A DNA stretch of 64,000 nucleotides from Prorocentrum cordatum (taxonomy: Eukaryota): assembly GCA_963575745.1 (NCBI GenBank), contig CAUYUJ010000001.1, positions 3,348,001 through 3,412,000 of the forward strand, in the 5' to 3' direction. Made by a program: the position numbers and the translations under genes. Positions 1,491 through 60,049 of the stretch are shown piece after piece. Within the stretch, counting starts at the first letter, position 1. Each line of letters opens with the position of its first letter. The notes under the pieces were generated by a model, which saw nothing but the letters and a program-made list of their open reading frames with translations, made no database searches and was not told where the DNA came from.

Positions 1491-2319
1491 TGCGTCCGTA
1501 TTAGGAAATTCCTTTCTCCTCCTCCTCCTCCTCCTCCTCCTCCTCCTCCTCCCTCTCGCGACGACGACGCCGACGATCGGCCAACAAGGTCGTCGAGGTC
1601 CCTGGGGATTCCAGGGGCCCCCAGGCGCCCCAAGAACAGAGGATGAACAAACACATGCGCAAACATTACAAAACCACGAAACCCTGAATCATCGATCCTC
1701 GTCAACGACGACGAACCCTCGTCCTCCAGCATTCAGCCGTGGTACTCTGGCGGCGGCAGAAGGCAGAAGAAGCAGCAACAACGACAACAACACAATAATA
1801 TTAACAACGCTCTGAGAACATGCTTAACAATTCAGCCCAAGCTCGGTACACTCAGACTCGGCAAATCTCGGTCTCGGCTAAACTAGGTCGGTTTCCGATA
1901 TCCAATTTAAAAGAATGGAATGTCTATCAGTCTATCTGTCTTGCTGCCCGTTTATCGCTCCTTCCCCCTCCTCCTGTCCCTCTTGGCAGGCACTTGCGCC
2001 AACGCTGGCGGGCAGAGACACGCACTGCTCCATTTCTCAATTTCCGTTTCGCAACTGCGCCCTCAGAGGGAGCGCATTGTTGTTGTTGTTGCTGTTGTTG
2101 CTGCTATTTTGTTGTTTTGTTGTTTTGTTTGATGCTTTCTGCGAAGAACACCTCAACGTGAATGACGTGCACCTTGAGTGTCATTTGAGTGGCTGGCCAT
2201 GCAGAAGCAAGTATCATCGAATGACCCCCCAATGGGAGACGGTGCTCTGAACACTACAGAACGCAACACACCTGGGTGAACCCAAGTTCGCTCCAACCGC
2301 AAGAAAAACGCGACAACAT

Positions 2320-3701
2320 TCAGAGCCAGAAGAGAGCAGAGTCGAAAACAATGTGCCCGTTGCCAGCCGCCGCCTCCTGTGCCGCCGACACCATGGCGGC
2401 AGGGCCGCATGCCTGCACGAAGATGGTGCCCAGGGCCCCCTCGCTCGGCTGGAGGGCTGCCAGGTCGGCCTCCGCCTCGGCGTAGACCTGCGGAAAGGAG
2501 GGCCTTCCCCTCACCAGCGGGGCCGACAGACTCGATTCGGAGGGCTCGTCGGCGCCAGCAGTCTCGATTGCGGTTGCGTGGAGAATTGCTGAGAACTTCG
2601 GGGAGCCGATCGGATACTCTGCCTGGAGACACTGCCCGATGCAATCATCGAGGACCTGGAAAAGCTCCAGGCTCCTGCCGATCCAGATCAGGCGCACCAG
2701 CTGCAGTGAAGCGGGCAACTCTTCCCGTACGGCCATCTGCGAGAGCGTGCGCAGGGTGCTGTGCACCTGTGTGATGCCGATGCCCCCACCGATGAGCAGA
2801 ACAGCTGCGTGGCCCGCTGGGTCAAACGTCGGCCCGTAGGCGCCGTCAAACTGCACGGTCAACGCTGCAGCATCCCCGTCGTGAACTAACTGGTATAGCT
2901 TGTCTGTGAAAGTGCCCTTCCCCATATTCTTGATGCACATCTTCGAAATGCCGTCATAGGGGGAGCTGGCTAATGAGAAGGGGTGCCACTCCCAAGTCGA
3001 GATCGCAGGAACGTTTACCCACGCAAATTGCCCAGGAAAGGGGTGCGCCCTGCTGATCTGGAGCTCTGTCACCCCACCCTCGGCCTCATAGGTTTTGGCC
3101 GAAAGGACGCACGCTGGTGACGTGATGCTCACGAAACGCACTCCCGCATCCACAAGGTAGAACACTATCCCACCAACCAAAAAATACCAAGAACTCTCAG
3201 CATGCAAAAGCGTTGCCGGAATCAGTATCAGGAAGAAGAAATGACAATATTTGAACAACTCCCACTGCTTGGACCTGATCAACGGCAGACCGCCAAATAT
3301 GAACAATGCGGGATAAGCTACAAGCATCTGAGTGCTGATTGTGAAATTGTCGTAGTCAGGCAGGCCTGGTACGGGCACTCCCTTTTTGTTGATGGGGTAG
3401 AACTGGTGGAGATGTATTGCGTCATATGGGAAGCTGTTCATCGAGGCGTAGCGGCAAAACATGGTCAAAATATGGAGAAGCATCATCACGAGGGCAGCGC
3501 CCCCAAGCCACTTGTGTGTCCACAAGCCCCGCTCCCAGGATATTCCGAGCGCCTTATGCCATAACGAATTCTTGCACGCTGGCAAGAGATTGAGGGCCAT
3601 GAAGAGTACGGCTGTCAATCCCCATGTACGGGCAATCCGTTCCAACCAATTTCCATCGATGGTCGGCTTTGCAGAATGGTATTGGTGGGATTGGAGCCAG
3701 T
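2320..3701 (-). CDS. Ferric reductase / NADPH oxidase-family flavocytochrome, exon 3 (heme-binding TM domain, FAD-binding and NAD(P)H-binding domains, stop)
   Basis: Paired heme His helices WTHKWLG..MLLHIL and FKYCHFFF..TLLHA; FAD motif PGQFAWV..WEWHPFSLASSP; DGAYG; NAD(P)H motif LLIGGGIGIT; C-terminal ACGPAAMV. AG acceptor at 3703-3702 on the minus strand. Confidence 0.92.
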
Positions 3702-4825
3702 CTGCCATCGTGACCCTTGCACGTGGAGGCATGGTCTAATGCCAACTGCTGCCTGGTAGGGTCGTGCAAGTCTTTGTCATGATCCCCCACCTCTTCCGGC
3801 GCCCAACTGCATGCCTCCCTCCCGAAGCTCCCTGAGTGGCTTTGGCGCCTCCAAGAGGATTTCCACGGATTCTAAAACGGCGCAAGCACACCACCAAGAC
3901 CGCCAAGGTGGCCCAAAACGCCTTCAACACGGCCCACGATCACCCACGACGGCCCGTCATGGCCTCATGACAGCCCAGTCGTGCCCCCCCCAATGCGGCC
4001 CAAGAGTACTGTAAGAGAAGCTCCACGCAACTTTTGGCTGCCTTTGGCGTTCTCGCTTTTTCGGGCTTTCCGTCAGCCCGATATGGCTTCAAAGGCTTCC
4101 AAAGTGGCCTCAAGACGGCCCAGAAAGCCCTAAGACGGCCCCACGGTGGCTCAGTCGGCCTCAAAAAAACAGCCCAAGAGACACCCAAAACGGATCTGAA
4201 AGGCCCCAAACAGTCCCCAATACGGGCCAGATATGCCCCCCCAACACGGACTCCAAAGGCGCCAGACGGCTCAAGAGCGCGCCCAGAGAGCGAGCTCAGA
4301 ACCCTCAAGACGCCCCGAGGTGGCATCCACGAGGCCCACATGAGGCTCGAATAAGGGAGGATGGGATAACACGACCAAAGATAATGACGAACAGGTCCTC
4401 CTCTTCCTCCTCCTCCTCCTCTGGCTCCTCCTCCTCGTCCTGGGGACGGCAACGTGTCACGTGTGACGGCCTTCTTCCTCCTCCTCCTCCTCCTCCTCCT
4501 CCTCCTCCTCCCCTACACCTCGTCCTCTTCAATCTCCTCCTCATCTTCCTCCTCCTCCTCATTCGCCCTGGTACGATGTTTATCCTTCTCCTCCTCCTCC
4601 TCCTCCTCCTCCTCCTTCTCCTCTTGCGGACGGCAAGTGCCACACGTGACGACCTTCTTCTTCTCCTCTCCCTCCTCCTCCTCGTCCTCCTCCTCCTCCT
4701 CCTCCTCCTCCTCCTCTTGCGGACAGCAAGTGTCACATGTGACGGCCTTCTGGGCGGTGCTCGAAAGGTTGCTACAGAGAGTGTCGCGCTGGAGCGATGG
4801 CGGGGCTTGCCGCAGGCAGTCAGAT
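3702..4825 (+). mobile_element. Non-autonomous Helentron-like element forming intron 2 of the reductase gene
   Basis: 5' (T)CTGCCATCG at 3701-3710 is complementary (8/9) to subterminal CGATGGCGG at 4795-4803, followed by hairpin TGCC-GCA-GGCA (4808-4818) and GTCAGAT. No TSD. Removal restores TGG TTC GTT TAC TGG. Confidence 0.75.
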
Positions 4826-5986
4826 AAACGAACCAAAGAACGAGCATGATGACGAATAGGGCGATTGTGAGGATCTCTCCGAGACTCATGCCTCTGGGAT
4901 AGCGCCTGCTTGCCAACGACTTTTCGAGAGGCGGATAAGCTGCCGAGGCTGCAGCCATCAAGGCAAGGATCTCGAGGAAACCGTAGAATAGTACCGTATC
5001 CGGGTACGCCTTTATCGTATAGTCTTTCGAAAGGCTGATGTGGACCGTCCTGAACAGAGCGCTGGAACCCTCTGCCTGGGCCGTCGCCGCCATCGAAGCC
5101 GAGACGGTACTTGGCATCCACTGGTTGAATGCATTGGGTAGTAAGGCCGAGAGTGCCCAGAGGAAGGGCAGCCATATCAACGCAAGGCTCAAGGCTGCCG
5201 CCAATCGCATCGCCCGCTGCCGCCGGAACGTCTGCGGGGTACTGCCGGGGGGCGCCTGGCCTGTAACCACAACGGCTGGTGTGGAAGTCCTGGGACGTTC
5301 GACATCCCGGGCCCTCGTCCACGGAGACGAGGAAGTCCTGACCATCTCTGCTAGCCCTTCGGGACTGGCGGCTTGGCCCAGAAGTGTGCTCCTCACGAGG
5401 AGAATCGCAAATACAGCTGTGAATCCCGCGCTCAATAAGAAAATCCATAGTCCGATGCCGCCGAGGACAGTTCCAGTGTTCACAGTGACTCCCGTGCACC
5501 ACAAGATGCCGCACCCAAGGACTGGTTTAGCTATGTGGAAACCCACCCCTGTCGCAAGACACGATCCAACGACAAGCAGGGAGAGCCAGCCTATCTTGAA
5601 CTTCTTGGGGATGCTGCCGTTGGACTGAGACAGCATCAGCCTCGTAGCGGACAAAGTCAGAATCCCAACGACTGGTCCGAGGTAGAGTGCAACCGCGAGG
5701 CCTATGACATGGATCTGGCCAAAACCTGCCTTCCCGACTATGCCGCCGCTCTTACTGCCGGACACATAGTCGCACTGGAGGAAGGTAATCCAGCCCATGA
5801 CCCCCAAAACGAGGGAGCACAACGCCAGCAAGGAGCTGATCATGATGGCCGAATTGATGTCCCTGGCAGAGCGAGGCCTCCACACCTCTCGACTCTTAGG
5901 CCAACGCGTGTAAACAAGCGTCGCTGCCGGGAGTGCAAATATCACCGCGACAACGAACACCGCTCCGAAGAATTCGGCAACGGACC
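4811..5986 (-). CDS. Ferric reductase-family gene, exon 2 (N-terminal multi-transmembrane region and first helices of the reductase domain)
   Basis: Open, non-repetitive, strongly hydrophobic frame (GSVAEFFGAVFVVAV...LFVIMLVLWFVY). Acceptor tgcag|G at 5988-5987 and donor G|GCAAG at 4810. The length of 1176 nt keeps phase 1 at both ends and joins exon 3 in frame. Confidence 0.82.
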
Positions 5987-6025
5987 CTGCATAATGGTAG
6001 TCCTCATCCTCCCGTGCCAAGACTA

Positions 6026-6179
6026 GGGGGCCACATGCGAACCCTACCCCTACCCCCCACGATTTCTGAAGGGGGTGGGGGGTGGGGTTCACTTCGTTCG
6101 GGAGCTCACGAGCGAAGTGAACCCCACCCTCCCCCTTAAAAACCGTGGGGGGTAGGGGTAAGGTTCGCATGTGGCCCCC
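6026..6179. mobile_element. 154-bp fold-back MITE with TA target duplication, in intron 1
   Basis: Near-complete palindrome GGGGGCCACATGCGAACC...GGTTCGCATGTGGCCCCC, flanked by TA at 6024-6025 and 6180-6181. Confidence 0.85.
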
Positions 6180-6251
6180 TAAAGATGACATCCATCCCCG
6201 TCAGGAGGCTTGCTCTCGCGGACTGCGGGAGCAGGGCGGAGGACGCGTCGC

Positions 6252-6258
6252 CTGCCAT
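6252..6258 (-). CDS. Ferric reductase-family gene, putative micro-exon 1 (ATG GCA G)
   Basis: gccATGG context followed by an AG|GC donor. Joining to 5986 gives MAGSVAEFFG in frame, and GCAGG is repeated at both intron junctions. Confidence 0.6.
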
Positions 6259-6288
6259 GGCGCGAGCGGGGTGCGGCCCAGAGCGGGA

Positions 6289-6298
6289 CTGAAAAGCC
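6289..6298 (-). promoter_or_regulatory. Possible trans-splice/5' UTR acceptor (ggcttttcag) 30 nt upstream of the reductase ATG
   Basis: Pyrimidine-rich TTTTCAG just upstream of the start codon. The function is inferred only. Confidence 0.3.
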
Positions 6299-7016
6299 TT
6301 CCCTCGCTCGTGTCACCACCGAGGAGGAGGATGAGGAGCAACACCAGCAACTGAGGAATCATATGGGGGACACATGACGGCCCCTGCTCATTTCGGCGCA
6401 CCAGCCCATAGGAGGCGCTACCGAAGGTCCCAATGGTACAAGGCGCGTAGCGCACCCCCCGCCCGTTTTGGCACACCCATCACACGTTTCGTGGCCCCGT
6501 GGAGAGCTCCACCTAAGGTCCCTGTGCCCAATTCGGCGCAGCCCTCACACGTTGCGTGGAGAGAGCCCCAAGAGGTCAAACTGGTAGGTTTTACGATGGT
6601 ATTTCGAAGGATTTTGCCCTTCTCGCATTTTCGGCTTTCCGACGCTCCAAGACTGCTCAAGAAGCTCCCACGATCGCCCCAAGGTAGCCCAAGACGCGTC
6701 CGAGAGGGCCCCAAGATGGCCCAAGAGAGCTCCAAGAATGCCCAAGCAGCGCTCCGAGAAGCCCTGAGAAGCCCCCAGGAGGCCCCAAGAGGCCGCCAAG
6801 AGGCCCCAAGAGGCCCCAAGAGGCGCTCAAGACGCGCCAAAGAAGCCTCCAAGAGGCTCAAAGATACCCCTCGAGGCCCGAAGAGGCTCTCAAGAAGCGC
6901 CCAAACCGCATCCAAAAGGCCCCCGAGAGGCTCCCCACGACACCCCAACACATATACAAGAGACCTCAGACCCACGACCCAAGCACGGTAGCGTGATGAG
7001 CCGAAAGCCACTAGGA

Positions 7017-12540: not shown

Positions 12541-13270
12541 TCCCCTTTATCGCCACCCAAGTCGGCACAACCGTCACACGTTTCGTGGCCCCATAAGGAA
12601 CTCTACCGAAAGCCCAGTGCTACCGCCCGCGTGCGCCCTCGCCACCCATTTCGCCACACCACACGCTGTGGCCCTATGGGGGTCCCCGCCGGAAATCCAA
12701 CTGCCACCGCCCGCGTGCCTTCCCGCCACCAATTCCGGCATACCCATCACACGTTTCGGGGCTTCGTTGGGAACTATACCCGAAGTCCCACTGCCACCGC
12801 TCGCGGGCTATCCCGCCACCCATGTCGGCACACCCCTCACACGTTTCGTGGCCCCGTCGGGGTCTTCACCGAAAGTCCCATTGCCACCGCTTGCATGCGT
12901 CGCCGCCACCAAGTCCGGCATATCCATCACACGTTTCGTGGCCCCACAAAGGAACCCCACCAAAGGTCCGCGGCCACCGCCCGCATTCATCCCCGCTACC
13001 CATGTCGGCACACCGCTTACATGTTTCGTGGTCTCATAAGGAAGGTCCCATCGAATGTCCAAATGCCGCCGCCCGCGTGCGTCCCCGCCACCTGTTTTGG
13101 TACGCCGCTCACACGTTTCGTGGCCCCATAAAGAGCTCCACTAGAAGGTCCCCGTGGCGCCGCCCGCGTGCGCCCCCGCCACGGCACACCCCTCGCACAT
13201 GTCGTTGAAACTCTAAGGAACTCCACCGAAGGTCCCACTGCCACCGCCCGCATGCGCTCCCGCCACGCAG
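11783..13270 (+). mobile_element. Diverged family B element (head, CAT microsatellites, array)
   Basis: Degenerate head ctgtggtgctggatcatcgttttgaagagacagcg; array of cacgtttcgtggcccc units at 12560-13270. Confidence 0.55.
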
Positions 13271-18027: not shown

Positions 18028-19841
18028 CCCAACCATCCTGTGGTGTTGGGTCCTCGTTTTGAAGAGTCGGTCCCCGCGTCTCCTCCGCCCCTCTTCCTCC
18101 TCCTCCTCCTCCTCCTCCTCCTCCTCCTCCCCCTCCCCCTCCTCCTCCTCCTCCTCCTCCTCCTCCTCCTCCTCCTCCTCCTCCTCCTCCATCGCCATTC
18201 TTTTTGCTTATCAATAACTTCTCCTTGCCGCACCCCGAGGCCAGTTTTTAGGGCGAACTGGGCGTTTCGCCTGAGACTTCCTCACCATTTATGACCCTGC
18301 AGCTTAACACAGGACGACCGTTTCGCAGGTGAAGGGCGAGTCGTTTTCAAAATGTGACTCTCGCCTTGGCGCCGCGCGCATTCGTTTTAAACATTTGCAA
18401 TCATTTCAAAGGTTGAGGGCGACTGGTTCCACATGTGCAAGGGTCTCACAGGTTCCCATGCTCAGCGTACCAGGAATTGTGTTTGGAAGGATTCAGGACT
18501 ATGAGGGTGGAACAGTTACATTGATTCGCGGTGTTGAAATCCCAGGAATGGCGTGCTGGCATGATTCAGGATCGTCAAGACGCCGCACTCACGTTGATCA
18601 GTGGCGTTGAAATCCCGAGAACAATGTTTTGGCATGCTTCAGGGTCTTCAAACGGCTGTCTTCCCACGATGCAATTCCCTCAGTGGAGATGGCCCGTTGT
18701 AGGGGCTTATGAGGAGGGAGCTTGTAGGGAGGGTTTATTCCAACATCGTTGATGGCTCTTGGGTTCACACTGGTCCTCCTCCTCCTCCTCCTCCTCTTCC
18801 GCCCTCCTCCCGTCTCCCCCTCACTTTGGCACCTCTTTCACACGTTTCGTGGCCCCGTATGGAGCTCCACCCACGGCCTCAGTGGCTGCGGTCGACTGCC
18901 GCCACCCCACACCTCGCACACGTTTCGTGGCCCCACAAGGGGCTAGGACCCAATGGCTGCGTTCGCATGCCGCCAACCCCCACTTCGGCACACCCCTCAC
19001 ACGTTTCGTGGCCCCATAGGGGCCTCCACCGAAGGCCACATTGGCTGCGATCGCATGCAGCCACCCCCTTCACTTTGGCACGCCCCGCACACGCTTCGTG
19101 GCCCCATAGGGACCTCCACCGAAGGCCCCAGTGGCTGCGCTCGTACGGTATGCCGCCACCCCCCTCACGTTGGCACACCCCTCACACTTACGTGGCCCCA
19201 CATGGTGCTCGACCGGAGCTCCAGTGGCGGTGTCTGCATTTCTTCCCCCATCGAGTACAGCGTTTCGTGGCCCCATAGGGAGCTCCACCAAAGGCCCCAG
19301 TGGCGGTGTCCGCTTGTTGCCCCACCCAGTGCAGAACTTCGTGGCCCCATAAAGAGATCCACCGAAGCCCCCAATGGCGGTGTCCGCGTGCTATTCCCCC
19401 ACCCAGTACAACGTTTCGTGGCCGCCCCATAGGGAGCTCCACCGAGGGTCTCAGTGGCGGTGTTCGCGTGCGTTCCCCCCACCACCCAGTACAGCGCTTC
19501 GTGGCCCAATACGGACCTCCACCGAAGGCCTCAGTCGCGGTGTTCGCATGCGTCTCCCCCGCCCAGCACAGCGCTTCGTGGCCCCATTGGGAGCTCCACC
19601 GAAGGCCCCATTGGCTGCGCACGCATGCGTCCCCGCACCATGTCGGCACACCCACCACACGTTTCGTGGTCCCATATGGAGCGCCACCGGAGGCCCCAAT
19701 GGCTGCGCCCGCATGCGTGCCCGCCCCCTAGCGGCACACCCTTTACACGCTTCGTGGTCCCATAAAGCGATCCACCGACGGCGATGCCCACACCAGCGAT
19801 ACCCACAAGTGCAGATGGTTGGGCTCTTCGCCAAGATAATT
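18028..19841 (+). mobile_element. Helentron-like element, family B (head - CCT microsatellite - 77-bp array - tail)
   Basis: 5' CCCAACCATC after a T run; perfect complement GATGGTTGGG at 19814-19823; hairpin TCTT-CGCC-AAGA; ends TAATT. Confidence 0.7.
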
Positions 19842-24724: not shown

Positions 24725-26712
24725 CCCAACCATCTTGTGGTGTTTTGTCTTCGTTTAGAAGAGACAGCGCCACGCGCCATTCACTCCTTCCTCCTTCCTA
24801 CTTCTTCCTCCTCCTCCTCCTCCTCCTCTCCCTCCTCCCTTCTCCCAATTCTGCCTCTGCCCCCCGCATGCCCCTGCTTCGCCACACCCCTCACACACTT
24901 CGTAACTTCGTGGCACCATGGGGAGCCCCACCGCTGGCCCCAATGGCCGCGGCCGCATTCCTCCCACCACCCAATACAGCGTTTCGTGCACCCCCCCAGG
25001 GATCTCAACCAAAGGCCCCAATGGCCGCGGCCGCACGCGTCCCCGCCACCCACTACAACGCTTCGCTGCCCCATGAGCAGCTCCAGCGAAGGCCCCAGTG
25101 GCTGCGGCCGCATGCGTCCCCACCACCCAATGCCAAGGTTTCGTTGCCCCATGGGGAGCTCCACCGAAGGCCCCAATGGCCGCGGCCGCGCGTCCCCGCC
25201 ACCAAGTGCAGCTTTTCGTGCCCCCCGAAGGTGGCTCCACGGAAGGCCTCGGTGGCCGCGGCCGCATGCGTCCCAACCACTCTCCGCAGCGTTTCGTGGC
25301 CCCACGGGGAGCTCCACAGGATGCCAGAGAGGCGACGCTCGCATGCGTCTCCCAGGCCCAGTACAGCGTTTCGTGGCTCGATGGGGAGCTCCAACGAAAG
25401 CACCAGTGGCCGCGGCCGCATGCGCCCCCACGGCCCAATGCAAGTTGCGTGGCCTCATAGGGAGCTCCACCGACGGTCCCTGAGGCAACTTTCGCATGCG
25501 TTCCCACCAACATTGTATCGTTTCGTGGCCCCAAAAAGGGGGCTCCACCGAAGGCCCCAATGGCCGCGACCGCATGCGTCCCCACCAGCGACTACAAAGT
25601 TTCGTGGCCCCCTGGGGAGCTCCACCGATGGACACAGAAACGACAACGTTCGCATGCGTCCCCACCGCCCAGTTGCCTATAAAGAGCTCCACCGAAGGCC
25701 CCAGGCGGCCGCGGCCGCATGCGCCCCCCCCATCCAGTCACGTTTCGTGACCCGAAGGCCCCAATGGCCGCGGCCGCATGCGTCCCCGCCACCCACTACA
25801 ACGCTTCGTGGCCTCCACCGAAGGCCCCAATGGCCGCGGCCGCATGCGTCCCGACCGCCCAGTACAGCGCTTCGCTGCCCCATGGGGTGCACCACCGAAG
25901 GCCCTAGTGGCAGCAGCCGCATACATCCCCGCCACACAGTACAGATATGCGTGGCCCCATAGGGAGCTCCACCGAAGGCCCCAGAGGCAAAATCCAAATG
26001 CGGCCCCGCGGCCCACCGCATGCTAATTTCGGCACACCCCTCCCACGGTTCGTGGCCTCATAAGGGGTTCCACGGAAGGCCTCAATGGCAAGGTTCGCAT
26101 GCAGCTCACCGCCCACCGCCCACCGCATGCCCATTTCGGCACACCCCTCCCACGGTTTCGTGGCACCGCAGGGAGCCTCACCCCGAAGGCCTTCGTGGCA
26201 AGGTTCGCATGCTGCTCCCCGCCCACCGCACTTTCCTGCTGGCACGCCCCTCGCACGGCTCGTGGCCCCGTAGGGAGGAGGAGGAGGAGGAGGAGGAGGA
26301 GGAGGAGGAGGAGGAGGAGGAGGAGGAGGGAGGAGTGGAGGAGGAGGAGGAGGAGGGGGAGGAGGAGGAGGAGCCCCCGAGAGCCCCGCGCCCTCCATCC
26401 ATCCTCCCTCCTCCTCAAGTTTCGTGGCCCCAGAGGGAGCTCCACCGAAGGCCCCCGTGGCAGGGTTCGCATGCGGCCCCGCTCCCTGCATGCCCATCCT
26501 GGCACACCCCTCACACGGTTCGGGGCCCCACAGGGAGCTCCACCGAAGGCCCCAGTGGCATGGGTCGCACGTGCCCCGCCCACCCACCCGCCGCATGTCA
26601 ATTTTGGCACGCCCCTCACACGGTTCGTGGCACTATAGGGGCCCCCTTTCTTCGTCTCATCTGCCTCGCGGTACTCACACCTGCATATGGTTGGGTTCTT
26701 CGTCTGGATAAT
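24725..26712 (+). mobile_element. Helentron-like element, family B
   Basis: Head CCCAACCATCTTGTGGTG..GAAGAGACAGCG; CCT tract; ~77-bp array 24870-26640; tail ATGGTTGGG at 26687-26695. Confidence 0.7.
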
Positions 26713-59672: not shown

Positions 59673-59738
<66 letters not shown>

Positions 59739-60049
59739 GTATAGATAAATAAATAAATAAGCTGCGAGCGCAGGGGCGCTTCCCGGCGCTCCCGTTAGGT
59801 CCATCGGTTCATCGGTTCATCCTTGGGGAATGATTTAGGAATCATGCATATTCCGCAGGAGTCTTGTGAAATCCTGCGGAATCGTTTATCGGTTTGCAAG
59901 TTTATCGGTTTACTAGTTTACCGGTTTATCGGTTTACCGGTTTATCAGTTTACCGGTATATTGGCGTGCACTCTCCGAGGAATCCTTGGGGGTCCTCCAG
60001 AGATCCTTCGGAATGCTTCGGCAGAATTTCGGGTTTAGGGTTTAGGGCC

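What the first reader, a model, noticed from the sequence alone, without database searches (positions are those of the whole stretch)
3701..4825. Candidate intron created by a rolling-circle (Helentron-like) element inserted into coding sequence
Seen: deleting 3702-4825 rejoins the reductase frame exactly (TGG TTC GTT TAC TGG CTC = WFVYWL) with no target duplication. The insert has the same terminal grammar as free copies in the window (5' TCYGCC.., subterminal CGRTGGCGG, 4 nt, 4-bp stem with GNA loop, 7 nt ending GAT). Read antisense, the 3' hairpin supplies a G|GCAAG donor (4810) and the 5' end supplies the CAG acceptor (3703-3702). Splicing 3702-4810 is in frame and leaves 15 nt (LTACD) in the mRNA. 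Known: the introner families I recall are mostly TIR/TSD DNA-transposon derived. Inference: this is intron gain from a TSD-less rolling-circle element, leaving a 5-aa footprint.
Basis: partly seen in the sequence, partly recalled or inferred. Interest (0 to 1): 0.9.

Follow-up and report, generated by a model that had tools for sequence, protein, structure and literature searches.

The report
Transposon removed exactly from dinoflagellate mRNA
A rolling-circle-type transposon sits inside a dinoflagellate reductase gene yet is missing, to the base, from its messenger RNA and lacks the usual splice signals, so it is either an unusual kind of intron or the RNA comes from an uninterrupted gene copy.

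Summary
A 1,124-bp insert (3701-4824, or 3702-4825; one T is ambiguous) interrupts a ferric-reductase/NOX-like gene on the minus strand of a Prorocentrum-like dinoflagellate. It has no target duplication. Its ends match the Helitron2/Helentron architecture shared by other repeats in the window.

The predicted splice is wrong. Assembled transcripts from 4 of 4 runs laid (4 studies, one a poly-A RNA-seq library) join 3700 to 4825 and skip exactly 1,124 nt. The mRNA therefore reads WFVYWL, as in 16 of 16 homologues, and carries no LTACD footprint.

On the coding strand the excised piece reads AU..AG (or UC..GA). It is not the GU/GC/GA..AG form known for dinoflagellates.

In 3 of 4 runs the same transcripts also lose a 166-nt perfect-hairpin MITE. 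Its boundaries are non-canonical and do not match that MITE's empty site, which points to RNA-level, splice-signal-independent excision in this organism.

- **Best reading (about 0.5):** the Helitron2-like insert is removed from the pre-mRNA as a non-canonical intron.
- **Main rival (about 0.38):** the RNA comes from an identical, insertion-free DNA copy. No DNA run was available to exclude this.

Helitron-derived introners are already published, so this would be a new variant and not a new kind.

The parts
2139..3700 (-). Last exon of the reductase gene. The CDS runs 3700..2323, the stop codon is 2322..2320, and the 3' UTR extends to about 2139. It encodes the Ferric_reduct, FAD_binding_8 and NAD_binding_6 domains.
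   Evidence: Pfam on 2323-3699(-): E 3.3e-10, 3.9e-11 and 3.6e-07. Transcript contigs cover 2139/2145-3700 in 4 of 4 runs.
3701..4824 (+). 1,124-bp non-autonomous Helitron2/Helentron-like insert, equally placed at 3702-4825. The element lies on the + strand, antisense to the gene. It is skipped exactly in the mRNA.
   Evidence: Joint 3700->4825, 'skips 1124', ends TC..GA, one base ambiguous, in 4 of 4 runs. No target duplication.
3702..3710 (+). 5' asymmetric terminal inverted repeat (CTGCCATCG), 1 bp from the 5' end. On the coding strand it supplies the CAG that may act as acceptor.
   Evidence: It is the reverse complement of 4795-4803 with 1 mismatch. Such a repeat arose in 248 of 20,000 shuffles of the termini.
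4050..4064 (+). Internal core TTCTCGC..TTTCGG, followed by degenerate CCAAGA-type repeats (about 3850-4330). The core is shared with other repeat copies in the window.
   Evidence: The same core, followed by CCAAGA-type sequence, occurs at 6620, 20698, 45127, 47234 and 60183, all on the + strand. Repeat density map.
4396..4751 (+). (TCC)n microsatellite and 93-nt tandem repeats, with GTCACRYGTGAC palindromes at 4456 and 4732.
   Evidence: Tandem Repeats Finder. Palindrome search.
4795..4825 (+). 3' end of the insert: 3' ATIR CGATGGCGG (4795-4803), GGCT, small hairpin TGCC GCA GGCA (4808-4818), and tail GTCAGAT.
   Evidence: The hairpin is not better than shuffles.
4806..4811 (-). It is present in the sequence but not used in any transcript contig seen.
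   Evidence: Only two joints were reported, and neither is at 4810.
4825..6018 (-). Middle exon. It encodes the membrane-rich N-terminal region, which is homologous to the N-termini of full-length homologues.
   Evidence: Alignment with 57-64% identity to the four closest homologues (three Prorocentrum cordatum-labelled, one unnamed JGI). Contigs are continuous over 4825-6018 in X1, X8 and X14, and covered by three contigs in X7.
6019..6184 (-). A second skipped piece of 166 nt: a perfect-palindrome MITE (TIRs at 6024-6043 and 6162-6181) plus 3 and 5 flanking nt. Its boundaries are CU..UU or UC..CU.
   Evidence: Joint 6018->6185 in 3 of 4 runs, not seen in X7. TIR search. RNA fold -153.1 kcal/mol, z -16.6.
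6185..6308 (-). First exon, with ATG at 6258..6256. It is in frame with the rest only after the 166-nt skip.
   Evidence: The frame was worked out from the sequence.

Best explanation
A non-autonomous Helitron2/Helentron-like transposon (1,124 bp) inserted into a Tyr codon in the first transmembrane helix of a ferric-reductase/NOX-like gene of a Prorocentrum-like dinoflagellate. It lies antisense to the gene and made no target duplication. The locus is transcribed, and the whole insert is removed from the pre-mRNA exactly at its termini. This restores WFVYWL and gives an 882-codon reading frame.

The excised RNA reads AU...CAG (or UC...GA), so it does not follow the dinoflagellate GY..AG rule. 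I infer a relaxed or splice-signal-independent excision. The 3' cut probably falls right after the CAG that this copy's TCTGCC 5' end supplies in antisense.

The same transcripts also lose a hairpin MITE at non-canonical sites just outside its stem. That suggests this organism has an RNA-level system that clears transposons from mRNA.

Shown: the insert, its architecture, the exact mRNA junction and the non-canonical dinucleotides. Inferred: that the template of the mRNA carries the insert, and the enzymology.
For: Main junction:
- in 4 of 4 runs laid (4 studies; X7 is on record as poly-A RNA-seq), one contig joins 3700->4825 and skips 1,124 nt. X1 has 0 other letters over 2,880 nt.
- The contigs end at 2139/2145 in all four runs, and at 6300-6309 in the three that reach the 5' end (X1, X8, X14). 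They therefore behave as transcripts.
- the best runs hold 0.67 of the sampled words. That equals the exonic share, 2,588 of 3,878 nt.

The 166-nt MITE as a guide to the template:
- the X1, X8 and X14 contigs that skip the insert also skip 6019-6184 (166 nt).
- That piece is a 158-nt perfect palindrome plus 3 and 5 flanking nt.
- A TA, TCT or TCTT target duplication would predict a difference of 156 or 163 nt between filled and empty sites, not 166. The mRNA sequence GTCAT|GGCAC also contains no TA or TCT target.
- This junction is therefore not an empty site. The template carries the MITE, as this locus does.

Other support:
- Both exons flanking the insert are intact and homologous to full-length homologues.
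- This copy has TCTGCC where 4 of 4 other 5' ends have TCCGCC. That difference is what creates the CAG at the exact boundary.
- Precedents for non-canonical or spliceosome-independent removal of transposons from mRNA: Amoebophrya (PMC7789003, passages) and SOS splicing (PMC12779559, passages).
Against: - An excision that coincides to the base with the transposon's ends is exactly what an insertion-free DNA copy would give. A splice-signal-independent RNA process would not be expected to be this exact.
- No DNA run holding this locus was found, so empty-site DNA is not excluded (none of the 24 listed runs exceeds a share of 0.67).
- The insert has no RNA structure that brings its ends together. 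The end-to-end duplex is no better than shuffles (235 of 300 shuffles fold as well or better). The MFE of the whole intron does not pair its ends.
- An A at intron position +1 combined with a 3' AG is disfavoured in known spliceosomes (established knowledge, not tested here).
- No ribozyme was found.
- All the evidence is from assembled contigs. These cannot show pre-mRNA, lariats or minor isoforms.
- X1, X8 and X14 are not on record as RNA.
Confidence: 0.5

Rival explanations
1. DNA-level difference. The mRNA is transcribed from an identical paralogue, allele or sub-population of cells that lacks the insert. That copy either never received it or lost it by the seamless excision that single-strand HUH transposition allows. 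The insert-bearing copy in the window would then be a very recent, silent or degraded knock-out.
For: - The mRNA junction equals the transposon's empty site to the base. This model explains that without any special mechanism.
- The boundaries are non-canonical, AU..AG or UC..GA.
- The insert has no end-pairing structure.
- Dinoflagellate genes are often multi-copy (stated in PMC5032977, outline, and PMC10666404, passages).
- No run holds the insert's words.
Against: - It needs a second copy with 0 differences over 2,880 nt, UTRs included (X1).
- That copy must still carry the 166-nt MITE or an odd 166-bp deletion, because the 6018->6185 junction is not the MITE's empty site.
- If the difference lay within the culture, the assembly's majority form should also appear in RNA. 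However, no contig crosses 3700/3701 or 4824/4825 into the insert in any of the 4 runs. Contigs can drop rare forms, so this point is weak.
Confidence: 0.38
2. A spliceosomal GC-AG intron runs from 4810 to 3702 and leaves a 15-nt LTACD footprint.
For: Both sites exist and the interval is in frame. GC donors are common in dinoflagellates (bioRxiv 10.1101/2020.10.14.339549, passages).
Against: - No contig in 4 of 4 runs shows this junction. All show 3700->4825.
- 16 of 16 homologues lack any insert at this site.
- It could at most be a minor isoform that the contigs dropped.
Confidence: 0.03
3. Artefact. The skip was produced by reverse-transcriptase template switching or by contig assembly, or the insert is an assembly error in the genome.
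For: It could apply to the 166-nt hairpin.
Against: - The 1,124-nt insert has no stable end-to-end hairpin and only 1 nt of junction homology.
- The same junction appears in 4 studies, with no cover over most of the insert.
- The insert has bona fide transposon termini and interrupts a conserved codon cleanly.
Confidence: 0.04

Closest known systems
Helitron2 / Helentron non-autonomous elements (HINE, DINE-1)
   Same: - The 5' end starts with T(C).
- A short 5' inverted repeat lies 1-2 bp from the 5' end and is complementary to a box 22-24 bp from the 3' end. A small stem-loop sits between that box and the terminus.
- There is no target duplication.
- Central tandem repeats and a microsatellite are present.
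- Copies form head-to-tail arrays.

These features match the descriptions in PMC3627910 and PMC4067079.
   Different: - The target is not TT or T-rich. The empty site is CCAG-T-AAAC.
- No Rep/helicase partner was seen (58 ORFs scanned).
- The hairpins are thermodynamically weak.
- The insert's 5' end shares only TCYGCC with the other copies.
Introners, including helitron-derived ones (Gozashti 2022/2025; Roy 2020/2023)
   Same: A transposon insertion in coding sequence that is absent from the mRNA. Helitron-type examples without target duplication are reported in PMC12130899.
   Different: - Known dinoflagellate introners use GH..AG boundaries, often recruited from target duplications. Here the boundaries are AU..AG or UC..GA.
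- Only one copy could be examined, so no family-wide intron gain is shown.
Amoebophrya non-canonical introner elements (Farhat 2021, PMC7789003)
   Same: Dinoflagellate introns with no fixed terminal dinucleotides. They are transposon-like and hairpin-forming, and their splice sites vary relative to the hairpin. The 166-nt MITE intron here fits this description well.
   Different: - Those introns are defined by 8-20 nt inverted repeats at both ends plus 3-5 nt direct repeats. The 1,124-nt insert has only an asymmetric 9-nt repeat and a 1-nt ambiguity.
- They were described in a parasitic basal lineage. A 2024 review lists no such class for core dinoflagellates (PMC11453091, passages).
SOS splicing (Zhao et al. 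2025, PMC12779559)
   Same: Spliceosome-independent, structure-triggered excision of DNA transposons from mRNA, with cuts near the ends of the paired inverted repeats. The 166-nt MITE skip, cut 3-5 nt outside a perfect stem, looks like this.
   Different: - It was shown in animals. It needs paired terminal inverted repeats and is imprecise.
- The main insert lacks such pairing and is removed exactly.
- The factors (AKAP17A, CAAP1, RTCB) could not be looked for here.
Euglenid nonconventional introns
   Same: Non-canonical junctions, a probable MITE origin, and removal by an unknown and possibly non-spliceosomal route (review PMC11282704, passages).
   Different: A different lineage. Those introns rely on pairing close to both ends, which the main insert lacks.

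Membership tests
Helitron2/Helentron-like non-autonomous element | The 5' terminus begins with T (TC) | tested here: met
   The insert begins TCTGCC. Four other 5' ends begin TCCGCC.
Helitron2/Helentron-like non-autonomous element | A 5' ATIR 0-2 bp from the 5' end, complementary to a 3' ATIR about 20-30 bp from the 3' end | tested here: met
   In the insert, 3702-3710 pairs with 4795-4803 (8 of 9 positions), 1 bp and 22 bp from the ends. The chance rate was 248 of 20,000 shuffles. The free copies have CCGCCGCCCCC / GGGGGCGGCGG at 24 bp.
Helitron2/Helentron-like non-autonomous element | A stem-loop between the 3' ATIR and the 3' end | tested here: inconclusive
   A 4-bp stem TGCC/GGCA with a GCA loop is present. 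Folding energy is not better than shuffles for the 4 of 4 3' ends folded.
Helitron2/Helentron-like non-autonomous element | A 5' hairpin involving the 5' ATIR | tested here: inconclusive
   Copy 7017 folds with z -4.06. The insert gives z -1.65, and the three other 5' ends give z -0.08 to -1.36.
Helitron2/Helentron-like non-autonomous element | No target-site duplication | tested here: met
   The empty site is defined by the mRNA and the homologues. Only one T is ambiguous.
Helitron2/Helentron-like non-autonomous element | Insertion into TT or a T-rich target | tested here: not met
   The empty site GAGCCAGTAAACGAA has a single T at the junction. The four other 5' ends follow the ..GA(T) terminus of another copy.
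Helitron2/Helentron-like non-autonomous element | A Rep/helicase-encoding autonomous partner with the same termini | not testable with these tools
   No genome is held for this window. None was found among 58 of the 76 ORFs of 220 aa or more in the window. Of the 18 not in that call, 14 overlapping-frame ORFs were not scanned and 4 lie in the gene region.
Spliceosomal introner | Absent from the mature mRNA | tested here: met
   Joint 3700->4825 in 4 of 4 runs.
Spliceosomal introner | GT/GC/GA..AG boundaries (the dinoflagellate rule) | tested here: not met
   The coding-strand boundaries are AT..AG or TC..GA.
Spliceosomal introner | Many similar copies forming introns in other genes | not testable with these tools
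   There is no genome and no further read-laying run. Within the window, the only match longer than 43 nt outside the insert is 91 nt at 74% identity.
SOS-splicing substrate | Base-paired terminal inverted repeats | tested here: not met
   For the main insert, the end duplex is no better than shuffles. The feature is met by the separate 166-nt MITE.
Amoebophrya-type introner element | 8-20 nt inverted repeats at both intron ends plus 3-5 nt direct repeats | tested here: not met
   The main insert has an asymmetric 9-nt repeat and a 1-nt ambiguity. The 166-nt MITE has both kinds of repeat, but both TCT copies are removed.

The most novel reading that the evidence does not exclude
A core (free-living) dinoflagellate has an RNA-level system that removes transposon insertions from pre-mRNA without GY..AG signals. 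The system can recognise the termini of a non-TIR, rolling-circle-type element and cut it out to the base. Such elements could then colonise coding exons as instant, scar-free introns that standard gene finders cannot model.
Probability: 0.3. Interest if true: 0.85.

Novelty: new variant of a known kind. Interest (0 to 1): 0.62.

Why it matters
If the removal is at the RNA level, three things follow.
- Intron creation by a rolling-circle transposon could happen without splice signals or a target duplication.
- The kind of non-canonical intron seen in Amoebophrya, and SOS-like mRNA repair, would extend to bloom-forming dinoflagellates.
- Some expressed genes would be missing from annotations that allow only GT/GC/GA-AG introns. 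This gene has no match above 84% identity (full-length matches 77-78%) in a database of 5.8 billion proteins.

If the removal is at the DNA level, this is a clean filled-versus-empty pair. It would define the termini and the target of an active Helitron2-like family in a 60% GC dinoflagellate genome.

Tried and rejected
- Whole-genome search: no genome is held for this window. Copy number, empty-site DNA and other interrupted exons could not be checked.
- Metagenome scans: a protein query and an exact 25-nt exon probe next to the junction both found nothing.
- Earlier findings of this scan: three look-ups were empty.
- Close copies of the insert in the window: outside the microsatellite, only short CCAAGA-type matches (up to 43 nt) and one 91-nt match at 74% identity were found. 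The first unmasked BLAST was swamped by (TCC)n.
- Rfam over 3400-6400, both strands: only sub-threshold miRNA-like hits on the MITE hairpin. No ribozyme and no group I or II intron.
- RNA structure bringing the ends of the 1,124-nt piece together: not better than shuffles. The MFE pairs the pyrimidine-rich 5' part with (GGA)n instead.
- Bulge-helix-bulge reading of the MITE junction: rejected by eye. The two 3-nt loops face each other and are not staggered by 4 bp.
- U12-type intron: rejected. The 5' end AUCUGA does not resemble the U12 donor consensus (recalled), and alveolates are said to lack the minor spliceosome (PMC7789003).
- Absence of contig cover inside the insert (bins 3848-4617) is recorded here only and is not used as evidence.
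Full report
**What the region is.** The window has about 60% G+C and is full of repeats. On the minus strand, ORF 2320..3735 carries the Ferric_reduct, FAD_binding_8 and NAD_binding_6 domains. ORF 4305..6200 encodes a membrane-rich region with no Pfam match. The best protein matches are dinoflagellate. They include records labelled Prorocentrum cordatum at 76-78% identity, plus transcriptome proteins. No protein above 84% identity was found, and full-length matches are 77-78%. The gene's own product is therefore not in that database. The upstream ORF aligns with the N-terminal half of full-length homologues, at 57-64% identity to the four closest. Both ORFs are thus parts of one gene.

**Checking the observation.**
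- The minus-strand frames differ by the amount that a 1,124-nt deletion corrects. Removing 3702-4825 gives TGG TTC GTT TAC TGG CTC.
- In 16 of 16 homologues inspected, the motif W-x-x-Y-W-[LIFTY] is uninterrupted (11, 8, 3 shared).
- The flanks show no duplication beyond one ambiguous T.

**The insert as a transposon.**
- Its 5' end, T-CTGCCATCG, is the inverted complement (8 of 9 positions) of CGATGGCGG at 4795-4803, which lies 22 nt from the 3' end. Such a pair arose in 248 of 20,000 shuffles of the termini.
- After the 3' box come GGCT, a 4-bp stem with a GCA loop, and the tail GTCAGAT.
- Ten other candidate repeat ends in the window align to this plan. Eight of the 11 aligned ends, the insert's included, finish in GAT.
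- Four 5' ends read TCCGCCGCCCCC, and each follows the ..GA(T) terminus of another copy. Three of these four junctions fit the exact head-to-tail pattern, which gave 5 overlapping matches at 3 sites against 0.10 expected.
- The insert shares an internal core (TTCTCGC..TTTCGG followed by CCAAGA-type repeats) with five other copies. It also carries (TCC)n and 93-nt tandem repeats.
- These features match published descriptions. Helitron2 has a 5' ATIR 0-2 bp from the end, a 3' ATIR 20-30 bp from the end upstream of a hairpin, a 5' T and no duplication (PMC3627910, passages). Helentron-derived HINE/DINE-1 elements have subTIRs, a 3' stem-loop, central repeats and a microsatellite (PMC4067079, passages).
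- Three things do not fit. The target is not TT. The small hairpins fold no better than shuffles, except the 5' hairpin of copy 7017. Beyond TCYGCC the insert's 5' end does not align with the others.
- No Rep/helicase was found. Only one weak sub-threshold Pfam hit appeared in 58 of the 76 window ORFs of 220 aa or more. Of the other 18, 14 overlapping-frame ORFs were not scanned and 4 lie in the gene region.
- The classification therefore rests on terminal architecture alone.

**The decisive result.**
- One search found 20 runs that hold part of 2323-6200. The best hold 0.67 of the sampled words. That equals the share of the stretch outside the insert and the second skipped piece (2,588 of 3,878 nt). 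None of the 24 listed runs holds more.
- laid contigs of four runs from four studies: X7 (poly-A RNA-seq on record), X1, X8 and X14 (type not on record).
- In 4 of 4 runs one contig joins 3700 to 4825. It skips 1,124 nt, with one ambiguous base and no letters in between. X1 matches the window with 0 differences over 2,880 nt.
- The contigs stop at 2139/2145 in all four runs, and at 6300-6309 in X1, X8 and X14. They therefore behave as transcripts.
- The mRNA carries the empty-site sequence (WFVYWL). The predicted 15-nt footprint is absent. Contigs can hide minor isoforms, so a rare GC-AG product is not excluded.

**Boundaries.** On the coding strand the skipped piece reads AU CUGACUGCC ... GAUGGCAG, or UC...GA if shifted by one base. 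Dinoflagellate introns described so far use GT/GC/GA donors and AG acceptors, usually in an AG|G context with repeated boundary sequences (bioRxiv 10.1101/2020.10.14.339549; PMC5032977, sections read; PMC11453091). This copy's TCTGCC creates it, whereas the four other 5' ends have TCCGCC. The donor is not a known type.

**A second skipped piece.**
- In 3 of 4 runs (not seen in X7) the same contig also joins 6018 to 6185 and skips 166 nt.
- That piece is a perfect palindrome. Its TIRs, TAGGGGGCCACATGCGAACC, lie at 6024-6043 and 6162-6181. The RNA fold is -153.1 kcal/mol with z -16.6.
- It belongs to a repeat family. Contigs from elsewhere match its arms and diverge from the window at 6023-6024 (also at 6033 within the arm) on one side and at 6179 on the other (table 7).
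- The skip removes the palindrome plus 3 nt on one side and 5 nt on the other. The boundaries are CU..UU or UC..CU.
- A TA, TCT or TCTT target duplication would predict a filled-versus-empty difference of 156 or 163 nt. The mRNA sequence GTCAT|GGCAC holds no such target.
- This junction is therefore not an empty site. It is best read as RNA-level excision just outside a long stem.
- That reading resembles Amoebophrya's hairpin introns (PMC7789003) and SOS splicing (PMC12779559).
- The skip puts the ATG at 6258 in frame, giving an 882-codon ORF.
- Reverse-transcriptase skipping of the hairpin remains a caveat for this piece only.

**Weighing the mechanisms for the main insert.**

For RNA-level removal:
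- The template evidently carries the MITE, as this locus does.
- X1 is identical to the window in the exons.
- The exons are intact.
- The CAG sits exactly at the boundary.

Against RNA-level removal:
- Exact coincidence with the transposon's ends is what insertion-free DNA would give.
- The insert's ends are not paired in RNA.
- No ribozyme was found.
- An A at +1 with a 3' AG is a poor spliceosomal substrate (established knowledge).
- No DNA run was available.

I put RNA-level non-canonical excision at about 0.5 and an identical insertion-free DNA copy at about 0.38.

**Comparison and novelty.** Transposon-derived introns are well known. They include rare helitron-derived ones without target duplication (PMC12130899). 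Non-canonical transposon-like introns are known in Amoebophrya, Fritillaria and euglenids (PMC11282704). Spliceosome-independent removal of transposons from mRNA is known in animals. What would be new is exact removal of a non-TIR, Helitron2-like element without GY..AG signals in a core dinoflagellate. My searches with the terms found no paper describing this. Supplements of the P. cordatum genome paper (PMC10666404), which may list introner classes, were not read.

Noticed in passing
window 6019-6184 (-): A 166-nt piece skipped in transcripts of 3 of 4 runs. It is a perfect-palindrome MITE plus 3 and 5 flanking nt, with boundaries that are not GY..AG and a junction that is not the MITE's empty site. 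It looks like SOS-type or Amoebophrya-type hairpin excision.
   Followed up: partly
window about 5275-5372 (-): A stretch of about 30 residues (PEGLAEMV...TSTPAVV) is absent from 8 of 8 aligned homologues. The transcript contigs are continuous across it, so it is coding here and not an intron.
   Followed up: partly
window 7016/7017, 28084/28085, 29016/29017, 58615/58616: Head-to-tail junctions of Helitron2-like copies (..GGCGG-22/24 nt-GA|TCCGCCGCCCCC..). Every 5' end seen in the window abuts another copy's 3' end. This suggests rolling-circle read-through, or insertion next to an existing terminus.
   Followed up: partly
window 4786-4819: In run X1 only, a high-depth contig (bin depth about 375 against 57 for the gene) shares about 34 nt with the insert's 3' subterminal region and runs on into unrelated sequence on both sides. 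It may be a related element end inside another abundant transcript.
   Followed up: no
window 2139-6308 (-): The expressed 882-codon reductase gene has no match above 84% identity among 5.8 billion clustered proteins (full-length matches 77-78%), although Prorocentrum cordatum-labelled homologues are there. Gene finders that allow only GT/GC/GA-AG introns may have failed on its two non-canonical introns.
   Followed up: partly
window 60031-60047 and 59700-59740: Two TTTAGGG telomere-type units lie just upstream of a repeat copy, and a long (AT)n tract lies nearby.
   Followed up: no
window 44398/46505, 45127/47234, 45677/47773: Identical sequence contexts recur at a 2,096-2,107 bp spacing, which indicates a tandem duplication of about 2.1 kb.
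   Followed up: no
window about 12700-13250, 18900-19800, 24900-25850, 56674: Satellite-like arrays of units of about 75-90 nt containing GGCCACGAAACGTGTGA, present on both strands in several blocks.
   Followed up: no
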